Translations under genes and position numbers: made by a program
NCBI GenBank assembly: GCA_000004695.1
Contig: CM000152.2
Coordinates: 768,001 to 832,000, forward strand
Origin: Dictyostelium discoideum
Taxonomy: Eukaryota
Direction: 5' to 3'
DNA length: 64,000 bases
Shown: positions 3,365 to 42,000 of the stretch, piece after piece
Position numbering within the stretch: position 1 is the first letter of the stretch
Layout of the letters: each line of letters opens with the position of its first letter
Notes under the pieces: generated by a model
What the model was told of the DNA's origin: nothing
Seen by the model: only the letters and a program-made list of their open reading frames with translations
The model's database searches: none

Positions 3365-5623
3365 TTAATTTATAAAGATTTCACAAGATAATTGATTGTG
3401 ATCAATTGAATCAAGGATTGGAATGAAACTTGATAATTTTAAGTATTGTTGTCCAATTTCTTGATCAATTGATTTTAATGATGACGATGATGATGATGAT
3501 GATGATGATAATAATTCTATGAGTTTATTTATATCAAATGAAATTAAATAATAAAATTTAATATAAATTATTGATTTTCTAGTTTGATTTAATATTGATT
3601 GAATTTCCAAAAATAATTGATTAATGTAATCTTCAAATTTAATATCACTTTTTAAATTATTAAATTGTGAATGAATAAATGAATTTGAATTTGAAATTTT
3701 TAATGTAATTCCTCTATTATCATTAATTTCTAATTTCATCGGATTTGTATTATTATTATTTTTATTATTATTTTTATTTTCTTCATATTGATCAATATTA
3801 TCATAAGTTAAGTCATTTTGAATAATTTCAGGTTCTTTAAAAAGTGTGAATAAAATTTCAATATTTGAATTTTTTGGTAATTTTGGAATTTTAAATATTT
3901 GAATTAAACTAATACTACCATCACTGCCACTATCATTATTATTATCAATAAAGAATTGTTTTAAATAATTAATTATATTTTCAAACATTGTTGAATCGAT
4001 TTCATTTGAAATGAAAATTGTTGACTGAATTACATTACTAAAACTAATATTTAAACAATCTAATAAATTATATGTGTTTAATAAAATTTGTTGGATTTCA
4101 ATCTCTAATTGATTATTTATATCATTATTATTATTATTATTTGTATTAATGATAAAAGTTAAATCTTTAGAATATTTAATTAAATCCAAATTATTTGGTA
4201 TCATTGAGATTTGACCAGCTAAAAATGTGAAGCCTTTATATAGATTTGCTTGTGAATAAGGACCAATACAAGCTGGTGCCCAATTACTAATGGATTGAAC
4301 ATGAAGATTTGATTTTTTTTCAATTGCACCAATACAATCAATTAAAAATTTAGTTTTATCATTTTTTGATAATGGAATTTCAATACATGCTCTTGATGCT
4401 GGATTATTTTTAAAATATTTATAATAGTATTGATTAACAATTGAAAAATCTTTCATATCTGAAATATAAAGATTAACATATAATAATTGATCAATTGATA
4501 ATGAATTCTCTTTTAATATATTTGAAATATTTAATAAAGCTTTATCTAATAATTCACCAATATTGTAATCATCTTTATCATTATCAATATCATTATCATT
4601 AATCTTTGTTGTAGTTGAAGATAAATTAAAAAAGTTTTTATTCTTTATTAAATTTAAAGAATATTCAATATTTAAATTTGATTCTAAAAAATTAAAATTT
4701 GTTGAATTTGTTGAATTTGTTTGATCATTTGTTGAATTTGAAATTAAAGTTGGAATTAAAAGATTTTCATTAAAATTTTTTAAATTATTTAAATTTCTAT
4801 TTAAATAATTTGAATTTAAATAAATTGAATCTTGAATTATTTGTTGAGTTGATTTTTCAGTTGTTGAATATTTTGAGATTGATGCATAGGCAACTTGAGA
4901 GAAAGCATCATCAGAATGAATGATTGTTTGGTATTGGTCGATGTTTATACGCTTTTTGTATAGAGGACAATCGATTACGATCGATTCATATTCACCACCT
5001 TCACCACAAATGTGGACGCCAAATTTTTGGTTTAATGAATACAGTGTTGGGTAAAGTTGAGTTATCGATTTTAGTAAATGCTTCTCAGCTACTAATCCCA
5101 TTGATGCAACTTTGATTATAATAGCCTCAATTTTACAATCAATCATTTCTCTTAGTAACTCATCTTGATTCCTATTCCAAAGGTATGAATAACTTGTGAG
5201 GTTTAGTCGTGAACAGCAATTCTCAACCCTGATTCTTTGATAGGTTGACAGAATGGCGCCGCATGACACACCTTTGATATTTGGGTGACTCTCTTTAACT
5301 AGTTTTAAAAGGGTGTGTAAATCTTCAACTTCATCTTTTGAATTCACTTCTAACTCTTCATTATAAGTATCGGTTTCTCTGCTAATTGCAGTACCGTTGA
5401 TTTCAATTTGGTATAATGGTAATTCTAAACATTCCTTGGCAATGATTTCAATTAAATTATTACCAACTGTTTGATACATAAAACTATCCAATTCTTCAGA
5501 AGAATTGGTTTTTGGTGGTTTTAAATTTGCTAATGCTACAATCTTATGTCCATTTCTAACACATTCAATTAAATTATAAATTGAATCTTTTCCACCTGAT
5601 ATTAATCCAACAATTTCAACCAT
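3365..5623 (-). CDS. dph6: Diphthine--ammonia ligase (diphthamide synthetase Dph6/ATPBD4) with two C-terminal RidA/YjgF-like domains
   Basis: Single 752-aa ORF. The N-terminus MVEIVGLISGGKDSIYNLIECVRNGHKIVALANLKP is the PP-loop ATP pyrophosphatase signature (SGGKDS) of Dph6. The long C-terminal region matches the endoribonuclease L-PSP/RidA-like repeats seen in fungal and animal Dph6. A low-complexity Asn-rich linker lies between the two parts. Confidence 0.85.
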   Translation of the reverse strand: MVEIVGLISGGKDSIYNLIECVRNGHKIVALANLKPPKTNSSEELDSFMYQTVGNNLIEIIAKECLELPLYQIEINGTAISRETDTYNEELEVNSKDEVEDLHTLLKLVKESHPNIKGVSCGAILSTYQRIRVENCCSRLNLTSYSYLWNRNQDELLREMIDCKIEAIIIKVASMGLVAEKHLLKSITQLYPTLYSLNQKFGVHICGEGGEYESIVIDCPLYKKRINIDQYQTIIHSDDAFSQVAYASISKYSTTEKSTQQIIQDSIYLNSNYLNRNLNNLKNFNENLLIPTLISNSTNDQTNSTNSTNFNFLESNLNIEYSLNLIKNKNFFNLSSTTTKINDNDIDNDKDDYNIGELLDKALLNISNILKENSLSIDQLLYVNLYISDMKDFSIVNQYYYKYFKNNPASRACIEIPLSKNDKTKFLIDCIGAIEKKSNLHVQSISNWAPACIGPYSQANLYKGFTFLAGQISMIPNNLDLIKYSKDLTFIINTNNNNNNDINNQLEIEIQQILLNTYNLLDCLNISFSNVIQSTIFISNEIDSTMFENIINYLKQFFIDNNNDSGSDGSISLIQIFKIPKLPKNSNIEILFTLFKEPEIIQNDLTYDNIDQYEENKNNNKNNNNTNPMKLEINDNRGITLKISNSNSFIHSQFNNLKSDIKFEDYINQLFLEIQSILNQTRKSIIYIKFYYLISFDINKLIELLSSSSSSSSSSLKSIDQEIGQQYLKLSSFIPILDSIDHNQLSCEIFIN

Positions 5624-6650
5624 TATTTTATTAATTCGTTTTTTTTTTTTTTCAAAAAAACAAAAAAAACAATAAAAACAAAAAAAAAAAAAGTTTTAAA
5701 AAAAAAAAAAAAAATAATAAGATAAAATACCTTAATAAATTTGTTTTTTTTTTTTTTTTCAATTTTTTTTTTTGTATTAACGTGGAATTGTATAACAGTA
5801 ATTCCTTTCTTTTTTTATATATATTTATTATTTTTTTTTATTTATTTGCATTTTTTAATTTAAATTTTTTTTGAATATATATTAAAATAATAATAAAATA
5901 AAGTAAAATTTATTTTAGGTAAATATACAAAAAATTTGAAAAAAAAAAAAAAAAAAAAAAAAAATAGTAAAAAAAAACAAATAATAAAATTTAATTAATA
6001 CTTCAACACAACAACAACAAAAATCAAATAGAAATTAAAATTAAAATTAAAATTAAAATAAAATTATGATGGATATTTTCAAGAATTAAATAATATTAAT
6101 AATCCACATTTCACAACAGTAATAAAGAAAATAGAAAATAATAATAATTAGAAAAAAAAAATAATTATCAAAAAAATAAAAAAAAAAAAAAAATTTGTAT
6201 GATAAAGGTGTTTTTTATTCAAACATTGACTAATTTAATTATAATTGAAAGGTTTTTTTTTAAAAAAATAATTTCACCTTCTTTGGAATGGATTTTTTTT
6301 TTTAATTGAGTTTGAGAACACACTTCGCCTTCTTATAAGAACATTGACGTAACCTAGGTATTTTGAATTTTTTAAAATTATAGTTTCAGTGAACGGTAAT
6401 TATTATTATTAAAAAATTATAAAATAAAAAAAAAATAAAAAAAAATAACTTACTTTTTGAAGGTGATATTATTAATTTATGAAAACAAAAGTGTTATAGT
6501 ATTAAAAAAACAATATTCATTACGACAATATTTAAAAATGATTGATTTTCATATTGATTGAATTGTTGTTTTTTTTTTTTTTTTTGTTTTTGAACTATAA
6601 TATATTGAGAGAGACAGAGAGAGTTGTCATTGATTAATTTTCTTTTTTTT

Positions 6651-6681
<31 letters not shown>

Positions 6682-8295
6682 ATGATTTTGAAAAGAGGTA
6701 ATACCCAGGAATTACAATATTCTAATTAGCACATTTACCTTCGAAACACTTGACATAATAAATTAATATTACATGTTTGAAGTTTCTTTTTAGAAATAAA
6801 AAGAATGTAAATGAGGAGTGGTCGGTCGTTTCCTCGATTAGGATGAGAGGCATGTCTGACTCCCCAACTTTGCCCACTTTAACTGATTACAGCACGATCA
6901 CCCACTAATGATGCTTCATTGTATATGTGAATGATAAGGCTTCAAACCACCCGGCGTACAATGAAAATGTAAAAGAAGGACAACTCCAGAATAGAAAATT
7001 TTAATTCACCTACACAAAAAGATTAAAACAAAATAGAAATTAATCCATTTTGTTTTGTTTATCATTTAAAAAGTTGAAAAAAAATTATTGTATCTGTGAT
7101 GCCCCTCCAATTATGATCCATTGGAGTAAAAATCTTTGTAATACTCTTTAAACCCTCTCTAATTTATCTTAAAAAAAAGAAATTGAAATACTATTAAATT
7201 GAAATTCAAGAATAATTAACCAATATTATGTAATGTCTCTTTTGGAATTCCATTAACCTATATATTTATATAAATAGTAAAAAAGGAAAAAAAAAAAAAA
7301 AAAAAAAAAAAATAATATATAAAATTAGTATTTTTTTTAATTATGTTTTTATAATTAATTTACTTTTTTTTTTTCACAATACTATTTTAATTCTTTTATA
7401 TATATATTATTTAATTTTTATTTTTTTGTTTTGTTAGAATTAATTTTATTAATGAAAATTAAAAAGAAAATTTTTGTTTTTTATACTTTTTTTTTCTTTT
7501 TTTTTTTTTTTATTTCATACCAAGTTTGGATGAGATTATTATTATAAACCAAAAAAGGAATTCAGATCATTAAAATTTTTTTTTATTTTTTTTTTTGTTT
7601 TCATTTTTACTCTTTTTAATGATTGATCAATAAATTCCTGTTTTGGTTTTTTGTTTCCTATTCAGGAAAATAAAAAAAAAAATAAAGGGTTAATTTTTTT
7701 TTTTTTTTTTTTATTTTTTTTTTATTTTTATTTTTATTTTTTTTATTTTTATTTTTAATTTGATTTCTATTTTTAAAAATTATTATATCATTTTTTTTTT
7801 TTTTTTTTTTGATTTTATTTTATTTACAGTTTTTTTATATTTATTTTATTCACAGTTTTTTTTATATTTATTTATTTATATCTTTTTTTTTTCAATTTTT
7901 CATCCAAATATTCTGATCTTTTTTTTAGATAATTCATTTCTGGTAATATCTCTTTTTGTTGTTTTTATGATTGCAAAAATTAAAAAAAAATTGAAAAAAA
8001 AAAAAAAAAAAATAGCACCAACTTGAAAGTAAATTGTAATTTAATTTTTAAACAATCAAATAACTGTTTGAAAATAGTTTATTATTTATTAAATTTAATT
8101 GTTGAAAAATCATAAATTAAAAAAATAAATAAAAAAAAGAAAAAAAAAAAAAAAGTCAAAAAAAAAAAATTTTATTTTTTATTTTTTTTATTTTTTCCGT
8201 TCCTATACAACATCAACATTAAATATTAATACCCTTTAAAGTTTGTATAAAAAAAAAAAAAACAAAAAAAAATTAAAAAAAATTAATTAGTTTTG

Positions 8296-10895
8296 ATGGA
8301 TCCACCAAAATTAACATTTATTTCAAAAAGAGATACAAAGAAAAAGGATGAAGTGAATAAAGAACAACCAACAAAAAATTTAAAAATATTAGATTGTAAT
8401 GTATATCTTATTTTTTTAAAAAAAACAAACTTTCAAATTAAAATATTATAAATTAAAATTATACTAACATGTTTTTATTATTAAAAATAGTATTTTCAAA
8501 TGATGAAGAATTTTCAAATCCAACTCAAGAAGAACCAACAAATACTCTTCAAGAGAAATTAATGAATGTTGATCCTCTAGAATTCTTTTCAAAAGGTGGT
8601 TTAAAGGAAGAACAAAAGAAAGAAAGAGATGACCATAGGGATGATTATAGAGATTCTCGTGATAGAGATCGAGATTATAGGGATAATGGTGGTCGTGATA
8701 GAGATAGAGATTATAGGGATGGTGGTGGTGGTGGTGGTGGTCGTGATAGAGATAGAAATAGAGACAGAGATAGAGACAGAGATAGAGATTATAGGGACGG
8801 TGGTGGTGGTCGTGATCGTTATAGAGATAATGACCGTTATAGAGATACTGATAGATACAGAGACAATGATAGAAGAGATGGTAGTGGTAGTGGTAGTAGT
8901 CGTAGAAGGGATGAAAGAAGAGAGAATAGTGGTCGTAGAGATTATAGAGATAATGATAGAAGGGATGATAGAAGAGATAATGGTAGATATGGAAGAGATA
9001 ATGATAATAGTGGTGGTGGTGGTAGTGGTAAAAATAGTTCAGATAAAAAAGAAGAGATTAATCCAGTTAGTAATAATAATGATATTCATAAAGATAGAAT
9101 TAAAAGAGATACAACTCAATTCTCACATAAAGTATTTGAACAAATTAATAATAAAAGAGATAGAGAGGATCCAGAATTAAGAGATATTAAAGTTGACTAT
9201 ATGGGTATAAAAAGAGATGAAAATAGAAAGAAAATTAAAGGTGAAAAAGGTAAATTCGTTTTCGAATGGGATAGTTCAGAAGATACATCATCTGATTATA
9301 ATACATTATATACAAAGAAATTAGAAATTCAACCTCAATTTGGTCATGGTAATTTTGGTGGTTATGAAAAGAATAATAATAATAATGGTAATCACTATAA
9401 TGGAAATATATACAATAATAATAATAATAATAACAACAACAACAACAATAATAATAACATAAATAATAATAATAATGGTTCAATGATTGGTGGTAAACAA
9501 ATTTCAGAATTACCAGATACACATTGGTCAAAGAAACCATTGAAATCAATGACAAAGAGAGATTGGCATATTTTTAAAGAGGATTTCAATATTTCAACAA
9601 AGGGTGGTATTGCGCCAAATCCAATTAGAACATGGCAAGAATCCAATTTACCAAGAGAGATTCTTGAGGCTATTCGTCAACTTGGTTATGAAAAACCATC
9701 ACCAATTCAAATGCAATCCATTCCAATTAGTTTAACTGGTAGAGATATTTTAGGTATTGCAGAGACTGGTTCGGGTAAAACTTGTGCTTTCGTTATACCA
9801 ATGTTAATTTACATTAGTAAACAACCACGTCTAACTAAAGACACTGAAGCTGATGGACCATATGCATTGGTAATGGCACCAACAAGAGAGTTGGTACAAC
9901 AAATTGAAAAGGAAACAAGAAATTTCGCTCAACATTTTGGATTTCGTGTGGTTTCATTGGTTGGTGGTCAATCGATAGAGGATCAAGCCTATCAGGTGAG
10001 TAAAGGTTGTGAAATTATCATTGCTACACCAGGTCGTTTAAATGATTGTTTGGAGAAACGTTATTTGGTATTGAATCAATGTAATTACATCGTATTGGAT
10101 GAGGCTGATATGATGATTGATTTAGGATTCGAACCACAGGTTACCAGTGTATTGGATGCAATGCCCTCGTCTTTCTTAAAGAGTGAAGACGATGAAATGG
10201 CAGAGAAACAAGAATCTGATCGTAGTCATATCTATCGTACCACCATTTTATTCTCTGCAACCATGCCACCACTTGTTGAAAAGCTCTCCAAAAAGTATCT
10301 AAGAAGACCATGTACCATTACCATTGGTGAAGCTGGTAAAGTGGTTGACCGTATTCGTCAAACTGTTATCTTTGTCAAATCAGAGAATGATAAGAAGGAA
10401 CATTTAACTCAACTAATCAAGGATGGTCCACCACCACCAATCATTATATTCGTCAATAAAAAGAAACATTGTGATATCATTGCTCCCGTCCTCGAGGAAT
10501 GTCGTGTATCTTACACTATCCTCCATTCGGGCAGATCTCAAGAACAGCGTGAGGCTGCTTTAGAAGGTTTCAAAAAGAGAAAATACGAAGTACTCATTGC
10601 TACTGGTGTGGCTTCAAGAGGTATTCATGTCGATGGTGTAACTCATGTCATCAATTTCGATATTCCAAAGAATATAGAAGATTACACTCATCGTATTGGT
10701 AGAACTGGTAGAGCTGGTTCAGCTGGTTTGGCCTCCTCATTTATCACTGATAAAGATGTTGAAATCATGTATGACCTTAAACAAATCTTAACTTCAACTA
10801 ATAATATCGTACCAATTGAATTATTAAAACATCCTTCTTCACAACAAAAACATGGTTCTTCAAAAGATCATAATAAATCTGTAATTTTTAAATAA
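8296..10895 (+). CDS. ddx23: DEAD-box ATP-dependent RNA helicase DDX23/Prp28 (U5 snRNP 100 kDa) with N-terminal RD/RDY-repeat (RS-like) domain
   Basis: Exon 1 is 8296..8395 (MDPPKLTFISKRDTKKKDEVNKEQPTKNLKILD). The intron has a GTAATG donor at 8396, a TACTAAC branch site at 8463 and a TAG acceptor at 8490. Exon 2 is 8491..10895. The N-terminal roughly 190 aa consist of RDRDRDYRD-type repeats. The helicase core carries the Q motif, GSGKT (motif I), DEAD, SAT, and HRIGRTGR (motif VI). The C-terminal tail resembles DDX23. Confidence 0.85.

Positions 10896-19043: not shown

Positions 19044-19125
<82 letters not shown>
19021..19125. repeat. (TTA)~33 intergenic microsatellite
   Basis: Directly visible. 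Confidence 0.9.
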
Positions 19126-20139
19126 TATTATTTTATTATATTCTATTCAAATTCTATTTTTTATTTTATTTTGTTATTTTTTTTTTTGTTGTTTTTTTTT
19201 TTTTTTTTATATATATATTATTTATTTAATGCATCCACCAAAAAAAATTAATTAATTTATTGGTCAAATTATAGGTATTTTATTTTTTCTAAAAAAAATT
19301 AATAAAATTGGATTTTTTAAGATTTTAAAAAATTATATTGTTCTAAGTTTGAAAAAGGTTTGATATATTTAGAAAAAAATAAAAAAAAAATAGAATTATG
19401 AGGGTGAATTTATTTTATAGTGTATATTATCTATACTGATAAAAAGAAATGAAAATGTCTAGATTTCTACTTTTGCCAATTATAAAAGTAGTTTGTAAAT
19501 TAATATCTTGTATTTATTAAAAAGTGTAATTAAAAAAGAAAGGAGAAAAAAAAAAAAAAAAAAAATGGAAAAAGGATACACAAAGAGAATTTAATAAAAA
19601 AAAAAAAAAAAAATTGATGTGTGTGTGGATAAAAATGATTAATGAAAATAATTATTTTATTTATTATTTCATTGAGGCAATATTATTTTTATTTTGGATG
19701 ACAAAAAAAAAAAAATAATAAAAATAATAATTATAAAAAAAACAAAAATAAAAAAAAAAATAAAAAATAAATAAAAACAAATTAAAATAAATAATAATTT
19801 GATTGTTCAAATAAAAAAAAAAAAAAAATAATTTGTAAAAATAAAAAAAAAAAAAAAAATAAAAAAAAATATATTAAAATAAAAATTTTAATAAATACCC
19901 CCACACATAAGTGGGAGTTTGCCTTTAGTTGTAAAAAAAAAAAAAAAAAAAAAAAGAAACTGTTTAATGTTTATTCAATCTCGCGAAAATAAATAATAAA
20001 AAAAATGAAACACAACAAACTGTTTTTTTTTTTTACTGATTTTCTTGTTTTTTAATTTAAGAATAACATTTATTAAATAGTGTTTAGAAAAATAAAAAAT
20101 AAAAAAAAAAAATAAAAAAAAAAATAAAAAAAATAAGAA

Positions 20140-32737: not shown

Positions 32738-33121
32738 TTAACTTAAAACTTCATATGCAACAGATTCTCTTTTGTGGACAGCAACTTTATGAGATAAAAC
32801 ATTATGTAAAAATTGTACACATTTTTGGGAAAGAACTAAACCTTCCATTGGATTTGAACTTGATACGTCGTATAAATTTGGAGCAACAACGATTGCTAAA
32901 TTTTGAGCTGTCATTTTATTGACATCAGAGAAACTTGAAACCATTAATAATAAATGCATTAACCAATCTAATAAACTTTTTTGTGGTTCTGGTAAATTCT
33001 TTGCTGATTGAACGCATTCATCAATATCTGTACTATAGAAAATCTTTTCTGTTGGAATTGAATTTAAAATTGGTGTTGGTAATTCTCTATACCAAATCTA
33101 ATAAAAAAAATAAAAAAATAA

Positions 33122-39030: not shown

Positions 39031-42000
39031 TTTGGGAGGTGTTAAAAAAGATCTTAAAATAAAATGTTTATGAGGGGGTGTTAAAAAAAAAAAATAAAAA
39101 AATCTAAAAAATCATATATTATATTTATGACAACATAAATTCAAATTCGCCATTTGTTTTTTTTTACCTTTTTTTAATTTAATAACGTAAGATTTTTATT
39201 TAATTATTTGGTGTTTGGTGTTTATTTTATAATACTATTTCACAAACACAAAAAAAAAAAAAAAAAATCTGAAGTACACAAAAAATTGTTTATTTTTTTT
39301 TTTTTTTTTTATTTAATTTTAACGTATGAATGAAAATAAATTCATTATTTTTTTAATTTATTTTTTTATTTTATTTTATTATATTTTTTTTTTTTTTTTT
39401 GGAATAAAGAAATAAACAAATCAGGTTTTTTTTTATCTTTTTATTTTTTTATTTTTAAATTTTTTTATTTTTTTTAATTCAAACTGCACTAATCTATAAT
39501 AAAAAAAAAAAATTATTTATTTTTTTATTTATTTTATTTTAAAACTATAGATTATTTTTATTTTTCAATAAAATTACTATTACTTAACACTTGTATTAAA
39601 AATAAATAAATTTAAAAGAGTGTTTAAAAAATATATTATTATTATTATTTTTTTAATGATTTATTTTTTAAAAAAAAAATTATTTTATTAAAAATTTAAT
39701 TTTATTGGATGTTTATTCTGGCAATTTATACTTGTTTTCCAAAAATATATATAGTATTAAGAAATAGAACTACCAATTTTTGGTGATATCAGCTTTTTAT
39801 CTGTTTTCTCCACTCTGGGTAAAAATACGCATTTTTTTTATAATTTTAAAAAAAAGTGTCTCTTTGTGGAATAAAAAGCATTATACTAAAATTAAAAAAA
39901 GTTAATTAAAATGAAAAAAACAAATCAATCAGTTTACATCCCAACTTTTAAAAATTAACTTTGATCGTTGCAATTTTTAATTTTTTTTTTTTTTTTTTTT
40001 TAATATTATTTTTTTTTTTTTTTTTTTTTAATCATTTGTTTTTTTAAAATTATTATTTTTTTTTTTTTTTTTTATTGTTTTTTAATTCATTTGTTTTTTA
40101 AAATTATTATTTTTATCATTTAAAAAAATTTTTTTAAAAAAAAAACTATTTAAACAAAAAAATAGGAAACATAACTATTTATGGTATCAACAAGTACAGA
40201 TTCATTAAAACAAATAAAAAAATTATTTTTAATTGAAAAAAAAAAAGATTTAAATAATTAAAATCTACTGTTTTTAAAATAAACTTGATAATGATTCAAA
40301 TAATTTATTTAAAAATAAAATAAAAAAATTAAATGAATTAATTTATTATATGTTAAATTAAAAATGTATTTTTCATATTAATAATAACAATTAATTATTA
40401 ATTGTTTAATTTATTTTTTTTTTAAAAAAAAAAAAAAAACACCCTATGCATATATTAAAATTATGATAAATGAGATATTCATGATTTAATTACTTTATAT
40501 TATTATTATTATTATTATTATTATCACTCAGTGCGATTTTTTTTTAATCTCTAACCCACCACCATATTTTTTTGATTCTACCTATTTATTTTGAATTTAA
40601 ATATTTTATTTTTTTTAAAAAAAAAAAACAATTAAAAAAATTTTTTTTTTTGAAATAATATATATAGTGAGCCATTTCCATATTTGTTTTTTAAAACTTT
40701 TTTTTAAAATTTCTTTTAAATTTGTGGTTAAAGTGTGATGTTTTTTTTGTACATAATGAATTATATATTAAAAAAAAAAAAAAAAAAAACCAATCAAAAA
40801 TAACAATAAAATTTTATGACCAAAATCTACAAAAAAAAAAAAAAGTTCTTACTTGCAAAATTTTTATATTTATTTATTATTTTTTTTATTTTTTTTATTT
40901 ATTTGTTTTATTTTTTTTTGTTTTTTTTATTTTTTTTTTAAAAATAATTTATAAACATACCACCAACAAAATTACAGTGGTACACCACCCAATTTCATTG
41001 GGATTGTTTATTTAATTTTTTGAGGTGGTAATTATTGTAGTTGCAATATTGCTACTGCAATTTTTGATTTTGAAAAATTAAGGGGTGGTAACACATTGTT
41101 TTATTGTATTTTGTTCTATTTTGTGTTGTTGTTGTTGTTGTAATAAAAATTAATTAATTCAAAAAATTAGTTTTCTTATTATCCATGTGAAAAAGACCCC
41201 ATTTATTAAAAAAACTACTTTTTTTATACATATTTGTTAAATTGTTTTTTTGGTTGAATAGATAATCATACCTTTTTTGTTAAAATTTAAAATTTTAACC
41301 ACAAATAATAATAAAAAAAATAAAATATAAGAAAAAAACCTTTTGAAAATCAAAAACCTAAACCTTTTTTTTTTGTGAATCTACAAAATTTTTTAACCCA
41401 AACTCACACCAATACAACGCCTACACAATCACCAATAGAAGTAATAATTGCCATCACCACTATAATTTTAGTGCGATAGTATTGGTAATACCCTACTCCA
41501 AAATCAAATTTTTTTTTTTTTTTTTTGATGATCATAACAATAAATTGTTTTCAATTACTAAGAAAATGTGTGTGAGTGTGGGAGAGTGTGTTAGATATAA
41601 ATTTTTTTTTTCTTCAATTTTATTTTTAATTTTTATTTTTTTTTTTTTTTTGGGATTGTGGTGTATTAATTTGGATTAATAGAGCGAGAAAAAAATAAAA
41701 AAAAAGAAAATGGAAAATTTGTTTTTTGTTAACATAAAAATTGAGTGGGGTTTTTTTATTAGTGTGTATTCTCAAACATTTTGATTTTAAAGGAATCACA
41801 AATAACAGATACTATTTTTTATAATAAAACAGCAATACTACTACTACTTTTATTCATTCCTTTAGATGAAAGAAAAAAAAATAATAATAATAATGTTTTA
41901 GTGTGTAAATAATTGTAGATTTACAATCTCTAACTATAAATTATAATTTTTTTTTTATTTTATTTTATTTTTTATTTAAATACATATTCCAAATACGCAA

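What the first reader, a model, noticed from the sequence alone, without database searches (positions are those of the whole stretch)
6290..7260. GC-enriched, ORF-less island in the divergent dph6-ddx23 promoter interval: candidate ncRNA or transposon relic
The 2.7-kb spacer between the divergently transcribed dph6 (start 5623, minus) and ddx23 (start 8296, plus) is mostly poly(A/T). The exceptions are two blocks (about 6290-6370 and about 6700-7260) whose base composition is far more balanced than normal Dictyostelium intergenic DNA, for example ggagtggtcggtcgtttcctcgattaggatgagaggcatgtctgactccccaactttgcccac... and ...ccacccggcgtacaatg. Neither strand has an ORF longer than about 25 codons, so it is not a missed exon-rich gene. 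Such islands in this genome are usually structured RNA genes, or fragments of retroelements such as TRE, DGLT-A or Skipper LTRs. Short C-box-like (GTGATGC, AATGATGC) and CTGA/CTGAC strings are present, but no convincing C/D or H/ACA architecture could be assembled by eye.
Basis: seen in the sequence. Interest (0 to 1): 0.5.

Follow-up and report, generated by a model that had tools for sequence, protein, structure and literature searches.

The report
Catalogued lncRNA in strain-variable spacer DNA
The GC-rich, ORF-less island is the core of a long non-coding RNA already listed in a 2017 Dictyostelium RNA-seq catalogue, and it lies in young DNA that differs between strains, so it is a known and probably minor feature rather than a transposon relic or a classic structured RNA gene.

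Summary
The dph6-ddx23 spacer is 2,672 bp. Window 6800-6965 is 44% GC, against 12.6% for the rest of the spacer, and its 150-nt peak of 46.7% is the highest in the 64-kb window.

The window is D. discoideum AX4 chr3:768,001-832,000. Rosengarten et al. 2017 (PMC5295588) list a single-exon, 710-nt intergenic lncRNA at chr3:774,585-775,295 (+). That equals window 6585-7295 and covers the main island, but not the small first block at 6290-6370. Its expression is uncorrelated with either neighbour.

Nothing supports a known RNA family: no Rfam hit, tRNA, DUSE promoter element or excess folding energy. Nothing supports a transposon: no terminal or direct repeats, no protein relic, and the transcript model was built from uniquely mapped reads.

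The DNA is young and variable. The same spacer is only 361-416 bp in D. cf. discoideum and D. citrinum. The island occurs in two of three D. discoideum lineages. It lies about 0.5 kb from the place where other strains carry two pore-forming-toxin-like (BB_PF) genes that AX4 has lost.

One new detail is a box C/D snoRNA-like module at 6806-6891 on the transcribed strand. It is rare in shuffles (6-9 of 2000) but is absent from the 47 validated D. discoideum C/D snoRNAs.

Verdict: an already known lncRNA, function unproven, low interest.

The parts
6585..7295 (+). Published single-exon intergenic lncRNA model (710 nt; gene model DDB_G3972941; labelled CUFF_2118_1 in File S6 and CUFF_2236_1 in File S4 of PMC5295588).
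   Evidence: The mapping window = chr3 - 768,000 is fixed by two genes. DDB_G0278373 at chr3:771365-773623 (-) equals dph6 at 3365-5623. DDB_G0277857 starting at chr3:776296 equals ddx23 at 8296. The model is 27.0% GC, against a catalogue median of 17% for lncRNAs and 13% for untranscribed intergenic DNA.
6800..6965 (.). GC-rich core of the island (44% GC; 150-nt peak 46.7%, the maximum of the 64-kb window).
   Evidence: Against the second D. discoideum lineage it shows 3 substitutions in 166 nt (1.8%). dph6 third codon positions differ by 5.4% and first/second positions by 2.0%.
6806..6891 (+). Box C/D snoRNA-like module. Terminal stem TGTAA (6806-6810) with TTACA (6887-6891). C box ATGAGGA 6811-6817. 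Internal CTGA (D'-like) 6856-6859. D box CTGA 6883-6886. The C-D gap is 65 nt.
   Evidence: This is the only such arrangement in 6585-7295 on either strand, and the only one in the 64 kb with a stem of at least 5 bp. It appears in 9 of 2000 dinucleotide shuffles (6 of 2000 with a stem of at least 5). It is on the same strand as the lncRNA. Its box and stem features match the validated orphan OR8 (AUGAGGA, CUGA, stem 5) in Table S4 of PMC8817022. It is not among the 47 validated snoRNAs. The terminal stem is not in the minimum-energy fold.
6085..7620 (.). Strain-variable block of about 1.55 kb that carries the island. It is shared with one other D. discoideum lineage and absent from a third and from sister species.
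   Evidence: Window 6093-7642 aligns to L008 8785-7194 (= L002 3194-4785). L007 has unrelated sequence to the left of the common junction TAATGATTGATCAATAAAT at about 7620. There is no match in L003-L006 or L009-L011.
6290..6370 (.). First, mildly GC-enriched block of the finding (29.6% GC). It lies outside the lncRNA model and its role is unknown.
   Evidence: It is conserved in L002 (5 substitutions across 6290-6440).
7657..7842 (.). Retained 3' flank of a BB_PF (monalysin-like) gene that AX4 no longer has.
   Evidence: 85% identical to L007 11586-11398, which lies just downstream of the BB_PF gene ending at L007 11076.
7843..7962 (.). Deletion scar. About 3.2 kb holding two BB_PF genes in other D. 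discoideum strains is missing here.
   Evidence: Window 7962-8295 matches L007 8232-7890 and L008 3723-3368. The intervening L007 8233-11397 has no counterpart in the window. tblastn of BB_PF proteins against the window spacer finds nothing even at E <= 10.
5624..5790 (-). dph6 promoter-proximal DNA shared with the short spacer of D. cf. discoideum.
   Evidence: Read from the L003 spacer sequence printed. BLAST matches lie at the dph6 end.
8085..8295 (+). ddx23 promoter-proximal DNA shared with the short spacers of sister species.
   Evidence: L003, L004 and L005 spacer sequences. Window 7962-8295 is also conserved in L007 and L008.

Best explanation
The island is the sequence-complex, GC-rich core of an independent, single-exon, roughly 710-nt long non-coding RNA. 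It is transcribed from the + strand (window 6585-7295 = AX4 chr3:774,585-775,295) and is already catalogued from developmental RNA-seq.

The DNA is single-copy, non-coding accessory DNA restricted to part of the D. discoideum lineage. It lies about 0.5 kb from the spot where other strains carry a duplicated pair of BB_PF genes, which AX4 has deleted.

The most likely mechanism is inferred, not shown. RNA polymerase II initiates near the TATA-like and oligo-T region at about 6596-6690. It produces a low-abundance transcript that ends near the A-run at about 7270-7310. The RNA most probably has no conserved sequence-specific function. It looks like a young, polymorphic transcription unit arising from the only complex sequence in an otherwise 13% GC spacer.

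Shown here or in the cited paper: the transcript model and its strand, its lack of correlation with neighbours, the absence of coding potential, the absence of known RNA-family or transposon hallmarks, and the lineage restriction. Inferred: the polymerase, the exact transcript ends, and the lack of function.
For: - **Transcript.** The published lncRNA model has an exact coordinate match. It was built from uniquely mapped, strand-aware reads. Models with a tiling path to a neighbouring gene were removed. Spearman correlation is 0.054 with ddx23 and -0.081 with dph6.
- **Composition.** The model is 27% GC, above the lncRNA median of 17%.
- **Non-coding.** The longest plus-strand ATG ORF is 21 aa. 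The 51-aa minus-strand ORF is frameshifted in L002 and has no homolog. NCBI annotation calls no gene there.
- **No known RNA class.** Rfam is empty at E <= 10. There is no tRNA and no DUSE. Folding z-scores are +0.47, +0.27 and +0.11.
- **Young and variable.** The spacer is 361-416 bp in D. cf. discoideum and D. citrinum, against 2,672 bp here. The island is present in L001 and L002/L008 only and absent in the third D. discoideum lineage, L007.
Against: - The catalogue's filters were lenient: at least 200 nt and at least 2 raw reads. The median maximum for lncRNAs was 1.0 RPKM. No expression values for this model could be retrieved because the table was cut when stored. The transcript could be very rare, or favoured simply because this is the only mappable sequence in the spacer.
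- The core is less diverged between two lineages (1.8%) than dph6 third positions (5.4%), Poisson p about 0.02. That hints at some constraint.
- The core's 44-47% GC exceeds every exon in the window. That is unusual for neutral Dictyostelium DNA and remains unexplained.
- The C/D-like module on the transcribed strand is unlikely by chance.
Confidence: 0.6

Rival explanations
1. The island encodes a box C/D snoRNA (window 6806-6891, +). This RNA would be either an orphan or an rRNA methylation guide, processed out of the longer lncRNA, which would act as its host or precursor.
For: - The architecture is canonical and sits on the transcribed strand: a 5-bp terminal stem directly flanking AUGAGGA and CUGA, a C-D gap of 65 nt, and an internal CUGA.
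- It arises in only 6-9 of 2000 shuffles and is unique in the 64 kb at stem >= 5.
- Its features equal those of the validated orphan OR8. The Diesend screen penalised candidates that were part of a longer transcript, which would have excluded this one.
- GTGATGC at 7097 lies 286 nt downstream of the C box, close to the 263-337 nt spacing between clustered D. discoideum snoRNA genes, calculated from Table S5.
- From my own recollection of rRNA sequence, untested here: the element before D' (GAGGCAU) is complementary to 26S next to the guide-less site Am2547, and the element before D would place an A followed by GUGG at the +5 position, as at guide-less 17S-Am1469 in the human-like context (sites).
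Against: - It is not among the 47 expressed C/D snoRNAs, which were selected from 577 snoScan candidates.
- The C box has a mismatch at position 5.
- There is no proper C' box, and the order of internal motifs is atypical.
- The terminal stem is not in the minimum-energy fold, and z = 0.11.
- The +5 rule for the D' element points to G2549, not the methylated A2547.
- The D. discoideum rRNA sequence could not be obtained, so no target is verified.
- The locus is absent from one D. discoideum lineage and from sister species, which is odd for a ribosome-modification guide.
- The criteria were fixed after the motif had been seen.
Confidence: 0.15
2. The island is neutral debris with no genuine transcript. 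It would be a decayed scrap of unknown origin, brought in with or next to the BB_PF segmental duplication. The lncRNA model would then be noise, or a mappability artefact of very lenient thresholds.
For: - The filter was at least 2 raw reads.
- The island is the only uniquely mappable, complex sequence in a 12.6% GC spacer.
- The region is structurally unstable. Three D. discoideum lineages have three different contents between the BB_PF flank and dph6. Sister species lack it.
- There is no structure signal.
Against: - The model is strand-assigned and 710 nt long, extending into AT-rich flanks on both sides.
- The authors removed models contiguous with neighbouring genes.
- Divergence in the core is reduced.
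- No donor sequence, protein relic or repeat was found.
Confidence: 0.15
3. The island is a fragment of a transposable element (a TRE, DGLT-A, Skipper or DIRS-1 LTR, or a DDT/Tdd/thug element) inserted into the divergent promoter region.
For: - About 2.3 kb is extra relative to sister species.
- The interval is an insertion and rearrangement hot spot. D. dimigraforme has a 5-kb spacer with 1.2-kb inverted-repeat arms.
- The composition is atypical for intergenic DNA.
Against: - No complex direct or inverted repeat of at least 10 nt exists in the spacer other than one palindrome.
- There is no tRNA gene in the window for TRE targeting.
- The Pfam signal is only a sub-threshold chance hit.
- There is no second copy in about 250 kb of window plus loci.
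- Reads mapped uniquely in AX4.
- The extra DNA is largely explained by a BB_PF gene-pair duplication followed by deletion.
Confidence: 0.07
4. The island is a DUSE-driven small ncRNA gene of a described Dictyostelium type: a Class I/II RNA, a spliceosomal snRNA, or SRP, RNase P or MRP RNA.
For: The GC content is typical of such genes. DUSE-like fragments (ACCCACTAA at 6900, ACCCAGGA at 6712) are visible in the sequence.
Against: - There is no exact DUSE ([AT]CCCA[AT]AA, consensus) anywhere in the spacer, and the two fragments each carry 2 mismatches.
- Rfam, which holds these families, gives nothing at E <= 10.
Confidence: 0.02

Closest known systems
D. discoideum intergenic lncRNAs catalogued by Rosengarten et al. 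2017 (G3 7:387; PMC5295588; 621 models)
   Same: It is one of them, with identical coordinates and strand. It is single-exon, 710 nt (catalogue median 628), fully intergenic, has no long ORF, and is richer in GC than untranscribed intergenic DNA.
   Different: It is much more GC-rich than typical members (27% overall and 44% in the core, against a median of 17%). It lies in DNA that is polymorphic within the species. It carries a C/D-like module.
D. discoideum box C/D snoRNAs (Aspegren et al. 2004; Diesend et al. 2022, PMC8817022), especially the orphan OR8
   Same: The C box AUGAGGA, D box CUGA and 5-bp terminal stem are as in OR8. The 86-nt length and 65-nt C-D gap fall within the reported ranges of 66-113 nt and 50-97 nt. 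It is intergenic.
   Different: It is not in the validated set. It is embedded in a longer transcript. At about 46% GC it is slightly above the most GC-rich validated snoRNA (CD7, 44.3%) and well above the family mean of 32%. It has no verified target and no conservation outside two D. discoideum lineages.
snoRNA host-gene lncRNAs of animals (GAS5 or SNHG type; comparison from general knowledge)
   Same: A non-coding Pol II transcript would carry a C/D unit on the same strand.
   Different: Animal snoRNAs sit in introns of spliced hosts. This model is unspliced. All but one of the known D. discoideum C/D snoRNAs are intergenic, and many lie in clusters. Processing was not shown here.
Dictyostelium transposon fragments (TRE5/TRE3, DGLT-A, Skipper, DIRS-1, DDT, Tdd, thug)
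   Same: It is lineage-specific extra DNA with atypical composition in an intergenic region.
   Different: It has no repeats, no tRNA association, no TE protein signal, and is single-copy by unique read mapping.

Membership tests
Intergenic lncRNA (Rosengarten 2017 catalogue) | A transcript model of at least 200 nt lying wholly between annotated genes, with no tiling path to a neighbour | tested here: met
   The listed model chr3:774585-775295 (+) maps to window 6585-7295, inside the 5624-8295 spacer. The coordinate mapping was verified on both flanking genes.
Intergenic lncRNA (Rosengarten 2017 catalogue) | No substantial coding potential | tested here: met
   The longest plus-strand ATG ORF is 21 aa. 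The 51-aa minus-strand ORF is frameshifted in L002 and has no homolog. Pfam gives only a sub-threshold hit.
Intergenic lncRNA (Rosengarten 2017 catalogue) | Measurable, strand-specific expression | not testable with these tools
   Taken from the paper. The stored expression table was truncated, so no values exist for DDB_G3972941. Raw data are at GEO GSE90829.
Box C/D snoRNA | C box RUGAUGA near the 5' end and D box CUGA near the 3' end, with conserved GA dinucleotides | tested here: met
   AUGAGGA at 6811-6817 (one mismatch, U5 to G, both GA kept) and CUGA at 6883-6886. The same C box occurs in validated OR8.
Box C/D snoRNA | Terminal stem flanking the boxes, and a C-D distance of 50-100 nt | tested here: met
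   5 bp, TGTAA with TTACA, and a 65-nt gap. However, the stem is not in the predicted minimum-energy fold of the isolated 87 nt.
Box C/D snoRNA | Antisense element of at least about 10 bp to rRNA or snRNA, with the modified nucleotide paired to the 5th position upstream of D or D' | not testable with these tools
From recalled eukaryotic rRNA there are only 7 contiguous bp next to 26S-Am2547, with the wrong register (+5 falls on G2549). The match to the 17S-Am1469 context is untestable (site list).
Box C/D snoRNA | Accumulation of a discrete RNA of about 70-110 nt | tested here: not met
   It is absent from the 47 RNA-seq- and primer-extension-supported snoRNAs. None of the chr3 entries lies at 774.8 kb. 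This is indirect, because that screen rejected candidates lying within longer transcripts.
Box C/D snoRNA | Conservation of the gene in related species | tested here: not met
   It is present only in L001 and L002/L008. It is absent at the syntenic site in L003-L007 and in the BB_PF loci L009-L011. Whole genomes could not be searched.
DUSE-dependent small ncRNAs (Class I/II, snRNAs, SRP RNA) | A DUSE [AT]CCCA[AT]AA about 60 nt upstream, and a match to the family model | tested here: not met
   There is no DUSE in 5624-8295 (consensus). There is no Rfam match.
Transposable element fragment | Terminal inverted or direct repeats, or target-site duplication | tested here: not met
   No complex repeat of at least 10 nt exists in the spacer apart from the palindrome TGGAATTCCA.
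Transposable element fragment | Multiple copies in the genome, or similarity to a TE consensus or TE protein | tested here: inconclusive
   There is no other copy in the window or in 11 loci. Reads mapped uniquely in AX4. There is no TE domain. No Dictyostelium repeat library or whole genome could be searched.
tRNA gene or tRNA-derived element | Cloverleaf detected by ARAGORN | tested here: not met
   There are 0 tRNA or tmRNA genes in the whole window. The box-B-like GGTTTGAAGCC on the minus strand (6940-6950) has no T-stem.

The most novel reading that the evidence does not exclude
The lncRNA is the host or precursor of an unrecognised box C/D snoRNA (6806-6891, +). The published screen would have missed it because it lies inside a longer transcript. 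Its antisense elements would serve one of the two D. discoideum rRNA 2'-O-methylation sites that still lack a snoRNA guide: 17S-Am1469 through the D element CCAACUUUGCCCACUUUAA, or 26S-Am2547 through the D' element. Because the locus is present in only some D. discoideum lineages, this would also mean strain-polymorphic ribosome modification.
Probability: 0.07. Interest if true: 0.5.

Novelty: already known. Interest (0 to 1): 0.25.

Why it matters
As it stands this mainly closes a question. The odd GC island is neither a missed gene, nor a transposon, nor a new structured RNA class. It is a lncRNA already in the literature.

Two side results have modest value. First, the ddx23-dph6 interval is a hot spot of structural change in the D. 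discoideum group, ranging from 0.36 to 6.6 kb. The laboratory strain AX4 has lost a pair of monalysin-like pore-forming genes that other sequenced D. discoideum strains keep. This matters to anyone who uses AX4 as the species reference. Second, the lncRNA sits in DNA that is polymorphic within the species. That makes it a concrete example of a very young transcription unit.

If the embedded C/D-like module proved to be a processed snoRNA, it would show that the published screen's rule against longer transcripts hides real snoRNAs. It might also supply a missing guide for an orphan rRNA methylation site.

Tried and rejected
- **Rfam.** An E <= 10 search of the spacer and a gathering-threshold search of the whole window gave only chance miRNA-like hits.
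- **tRNA scan.** None found.
- **Folding.** The core on both strands and the 87-nt module have z-scores near 0. The z of -2.6 for the whole 711 nt comes from U-run/A-run pairing and only 20 shuffles, so I do not count it.
- **H/ACA architecture.** Tried by eye on both strands. Candidate ACA and H boxes fall inside stems or too far from hairpin bases. Rejected.
- **miRNA-like hairpin at 6915-6963.** The stem is only about 10 bp with a large loop. Rejected.
- **DUSE search.** None in the spacer.
- **Whole-window repeat finder and undusted BLAST.** Both were swamped by low-complexity matches and were uninformative.
- **Exact look-up of eight island ORFs in the 15-billion-protein collection.** All absent.
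- **Exact 22-23-mer scans.** One 23-mer was scanned against the JGI metagenomes, GTDB genomes and IMG/VR, and a second 22-mer against the first two only. No matches, so there is no sign of bacterial or viral origin.
- **Full-text searches for island oligomers.** No relevant paper.
- **BB_PF pseudogene idea.** tblastn finds nothing in the window spacer.
- **Island homolog next to the ancestral BB_PF clusters of three species.** None.
- **Weak Pfam Herpes_UL52 hit on the minus-frame ORF.** E = 0.0016, below cutoff. No support from PDB, PHROGs or 1.84 billion representatives. Treated as chance.
- **Resemblance of the minus strand to 26S rRNA around H69-H71.** It is only a 7 + 5 + 3-nt patchwork and there is no Rfam LSU hit. 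Treated as chance or a guide-like element, not rDNA.
- **Getting the D. discoideum rRNA sequence.** No tool or held paper text provides it.
Full report
**1. What is in the sequence**

dph6 is a single uninterrupted 752-aa ORF on the minus strand at 3365-5623. Its product is identical to D. discoideum AX4 protein XP_642320 / Q54Y82. ddx23 begins at 8296 on the plus strand. The spacer is 2,672 bp.

| Region | GC |
|---|---|
| Spacer outside the transcript model | 12.6% |
| First block, 6290-6370 | 29.6% |
| Island, 6690-7260 | 29.9% |
| Core, 6800-6965 | 44.0% |
| Peak 150-nt window | 46.7% |

The peak is the single highest value among all 150-nt windows of the 64 kb, above every exon.

The statement that no ORF exceeds about 25 codons is slightly off. 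ORFs of 51 and 43 aa exist if GTG and TTG starts are allowed. None is credible as coding:
- The longest ATG ORF on the plus strand is 21 aa.
- A 2-nt indel in a second D. discoideum lineage shifts the 51-aa frame.
- That ORF has no relative among 1.84 billion protein representatives.

**2. Tests for known RNA genes and transposons**

*RNA genes.*
- Rfam at E <= 10 over the spacer returned only chance miRNA-like hits. At gathering thresholds it returned nothing in the whole window.
- ARAGORN found no tRNA.
- The promoter element of Dictyostelium small ncRNA genes, DUSE ([AT]CCCA[AT]AA, from PMC3188802), has no exact match in the spacer.
- Predicted folding energies of the core on either strand are no better than shuffles, with z = +0.47 and +0.27.

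*Transposons.*
- The spacer has no complex direct or inverted repeat of 10 nt or more, apart from one palindrome.
- The island has no second copy in the window or in any of eleven related loci.
- Six-frame Pfam scanning gave one sub-threshold hit (Herpes_UL52, E = 0.0016). PDB, PHROGs and the 1.84-billion-protein search did not back it.
- Exact 22-23-mers from the core are absent from JGI metagenomes and GTDB genomes, and the 23-mer is also absent from IMG/VR.

**3. The island is a catalogued lncRNA**

Supplementary File S6 of Rosengarten et al. 2017 (PMC5295588) contains this row: DDB_G0277857 chr3:776296-778895 (+), then lncRNA chr3:774585-775295 (+), then DDB_G0278373 chr3:771365-773623 (-).

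DDB_G0278373 is 2,259 bp, exactly the length of dph6. It ends 2,673 bp before the start of DDB_G0277857, exactly the distance 5623 to 8296. So window position = chr3 position - 768,000, and the lncRNA is window 6585-7295 on the plus strand.

File S4 lists it as a single exon of 710 nt, gene model DDB_G3972941. The CUFF labels of the two files disagree for the same coordinates.

How the models were built:
- The data were strand-specific and rRNA-depleted, from an AX4 developmental time course. Only uniquely mapped reads were used.
- Models had to be at least 200 nt, have at least 2 raw reads, and have no tiling path to a neighbouring gene.

Its Spearman correlation is 0.054 with ddx23 and -0.081 with dph6. 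It therefore behaves as an independent unit. It is neither ddx23 upstream read-through nor a by-product of a bidirectional promoter.

Caveats:
- The thresholds were lenient.
- The catalogue's median maximum abundance is 1.0 RPKM.
- The expression table held here is truncated, so I have no values for this model.

The first block of the finding (6290-6370) lies outside the model.

**4. Evolutionary context**

I used the dph6 protein to fetch orthologous loci and checked the ddx23 ends.

| Locus | Source | ddx23-dph6 spacer |
|---|---|---|
| window | D. discoideum AX4 | 2,672 bp |
| L003 | D. cf. discoideum | 416 bp |
| L004, L005 | two D. citrinum assemblies | 364 and 361 bp |
| L006 | D. dimigraforme | 5,088 bp |
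| L007 | D. discoideum, other assembly | 6,346 bp |
| L008 | D. discoideum, other assembly | 6,633 bp |

The short spacers align to the two ends of the AX4 spacer, roughly 5624-5790 and 8085-8295. About 2.3 kb is therefore extra in AX4.

In L007 and L008 the interval holds a divergent pair of BB_PF (monalysin-like pore-forming domain) genes. These resemble a pair within a four-gene BB_PF cluster found elsewhere in D. discoideum, D. dimigraforme and D. firmibasis.

AX4 has lost both genes:
- Window 7657-7842 is the retained 3' flank of the second BB_PF gene.
- Window 7962-8295 is the ddx23-proximal DNA.
- About 3.2 kb between them is gone.
- No BB_PF protein similarity is left in the window spacer.

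The 1.55-kb block carrying the island (about 6085-7620) is shared only with L002/L008. The third D. discoideum lineage, L007, has unrelated sequence to the left of a junction common to all three at about 7620. That unrelated sequence includes a 50-54% GC tandem-repeat piece.

The island is thus at most as old as D. discoideum in the strict sense, and it is polymorphic within the species.

Between AX4 and L002 the core shows 3 substitutions in 166 nt (1.8%). dph6 third codon positions differ by 5.4% and first/second positions by 2.0%. This is a weak hint of constraint, with Poisson p about 0.02. It is confounded by the poor alignability of the AT-rich flanks. With only two sequences, no covariation test is possible.

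**5. A box C/D-like module**

On the transcribed strand the core reads TGTAA-ATGAGGA-(38 nt)-CTGA-(23 nt)-CTGA-TTACA, at 6806-6891. This gives a one-mismatch C box with both GA dinucleotides kept, an internal D'-like CUGA, a D box, a 65-nt C-D gap, and a 5-bp terminal stem directly abutting the boxes.

I scored standard criteria: a C box with at most 1 mismatch and both GA kept, CUGA 40-100 nt downstream, and an adjacent stem of at least 4 bp.
- This is the only hit in 6585-7295 on either strand.
- Such a hit arises in 9 of 2000 dinucleotide shuffles, or 6 of 2000 with a stem of at least 5.
- The whole 64 kb has one other hit, inside apparently coding sequence.

The features equal those of the validated orphan OR8 (AUGAGGA, CUGA, stem 5) in Diesend et al. 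2022 (PMC8817022).

Points against:
- The module is not among that paper's 47 expressed C/D snoRNAs. However, their pipeline penalised candidates that were part of a longer transcript.
- The terminal stem is not in the predicted minimum-energy fold.
- There is no proper C' box.
- I fixed the criteria after seeing the motif.

Targets could not be tested, because no tool or held text gives the D. discoideum rRNA sequence. The following rests on my own recollection of eukaryotic rRNA. I checked the numbering against yeast psi2258-2266, m5C2278 and Gm2288.
- The element before D' (GAGGCAU) pairs with 26S AUGCCUC, immediately 3' of Am2547. This is one of three D. discoideum sites with no assigned guide.
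- The +5 rule would hit G2549, not A2547, and a 7-nt match is expected by chance.
- The element before D would place an A followed by GUGG at +5, as in the human-like context of the other snoRNA-less site, 17S-Am1469. That hairpin is variable between species, so this is only a lead.

**6. Conclusion**

The best-supported reading is that the island is the complex, GC-rich core of a known, independently transcribed, non-coding RNA. It arises from young, single-copy, strain-variable DNA. Conserved function is unlikely because the locus is missing from a conspecific lineage and from sister species.

The transposon reading finds no support. The described small-ncRNA classes are excluded. A snoRNA-host reading remains open at low probability.

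What remains unexplained is where a 44-47% GC, ORF-less, unique sequence came from in a genome whose exons rarely reach that value.

Noticed in passing
window 7657-7962; L007 8870-11076; L008 4296-6917: AX4 lacks a divergent pair of BB_PF (monalysin-like pore-forming) genes that two other D. discoideum assemblies carry between ddx23 and dph6. Only the 3' flank of one gene and a scar of about 120 bp remain. No AX4 protein appeared among the BB_PF homologs.
   Followed up: partly
L009 3616-8940; L010 4085-8910; L011 6434-11856: A cluster of BB_PF genes with alternating strands exists elsewhere: four adjacent genes, three of them with a BB_PF hit, in D. discoideum (strain ACTFIR) and D. dimigraforme, and part of it in D. 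firmibasis. It looks like the source of the pair duplicated into the ddx23-dph6 interval.
   Followed up: partly
L003 5585-6000; L004 5637-6000; L005 5640-6000; L006 913-6000; L007 7890-14235; L008 3368-10000: The ddx23-dph6 spacer ranges from 361 bp to 6.6 kb across six close relatives, with a different content in nearly every lineage. It is a structural hot spot.
   Followed up: yes
L006 1189-2362 and 4403-5534: The D. dimigraforme spacer contains two inverted-repeat arms of about 1.2 kb (87% identical) around a central segment. Small, asparagine-rich or otherwise low-complexity ORFs there have been called as genes.
   Followed up: no
L007 13000-13631: A 50-54% GC piece made of tandem repeats is called as a 167-aa gene. 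It occupies the position where AX4 and L008 have the lncRNA block, and is unrelated to it.
   Followed up: no
L002 about 4785-5650 (= L008 8785-9650): An 0.87-kb segment specific to this lineage lies between the shared block and the dph6 promoter. It has a coding-looking ORF (MVEGVVTAHTQKEEKCTGLYLNNLSISGFIGG...) followed by an intron-like GTAAA.
   Followed up: no
window 19098-19759 (+) and 39529-39949 (-): Two further lncRNA models from the same catalogue fall inside the window: chr3:787098-787759 (+) and chr3:807529-807949 (-).
   Followed up: no
PMC5295588 File S4 versus File S6: The CUFF identifiers for identical coordinates differ between the two supplementary files (CUFF_2236_1 versus CUFF_2118_1 for chr3:774585-775295). 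The label column of File S4 looks shuffled relative to genome order. Use coordinates or DDB_G ids, not CUFF ids.
   Followed up: yes
window 7097-7127: A second C-box-like GTGATGC lies 286 nt downstream of the first C box, within the usual 263-337 nt spacing of D. discoideum snoRNA clusters. It is followed by the perfect hairpin CTCCAAT-TATGATCC-ATTGGAG, but there is no D box within 100 nt. It may be a decayed second unit.
   Followed up: partly
window 6722-6877 (-): The 51-aa minus-strand ORF gives a sub-threshold Pfam hit to the Herpes_UL52 primase zinc-finger domain (E = 0.0016, 18.7 bits against a cutoff of 21) and ends in a C-x4-C motif. No support came from any other search, so it is treated as chance.
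   Followed up: yes
window 32921-33028 (-): This is the only other C/D-motif hit in the window (TTGATGA ... CTGA, 4-bp stem). The sequence looks like coding DNA, so it is probably chance.
   Followed up: no
window 6940-6950 (-): GGTTTGAAGCC on the minus strand matches the Pol III box B consensus (GGTTCGANNCC) at 10 of 11 positions. It has no box A, no T-stem and no tRNA call.
   Followed up: partly
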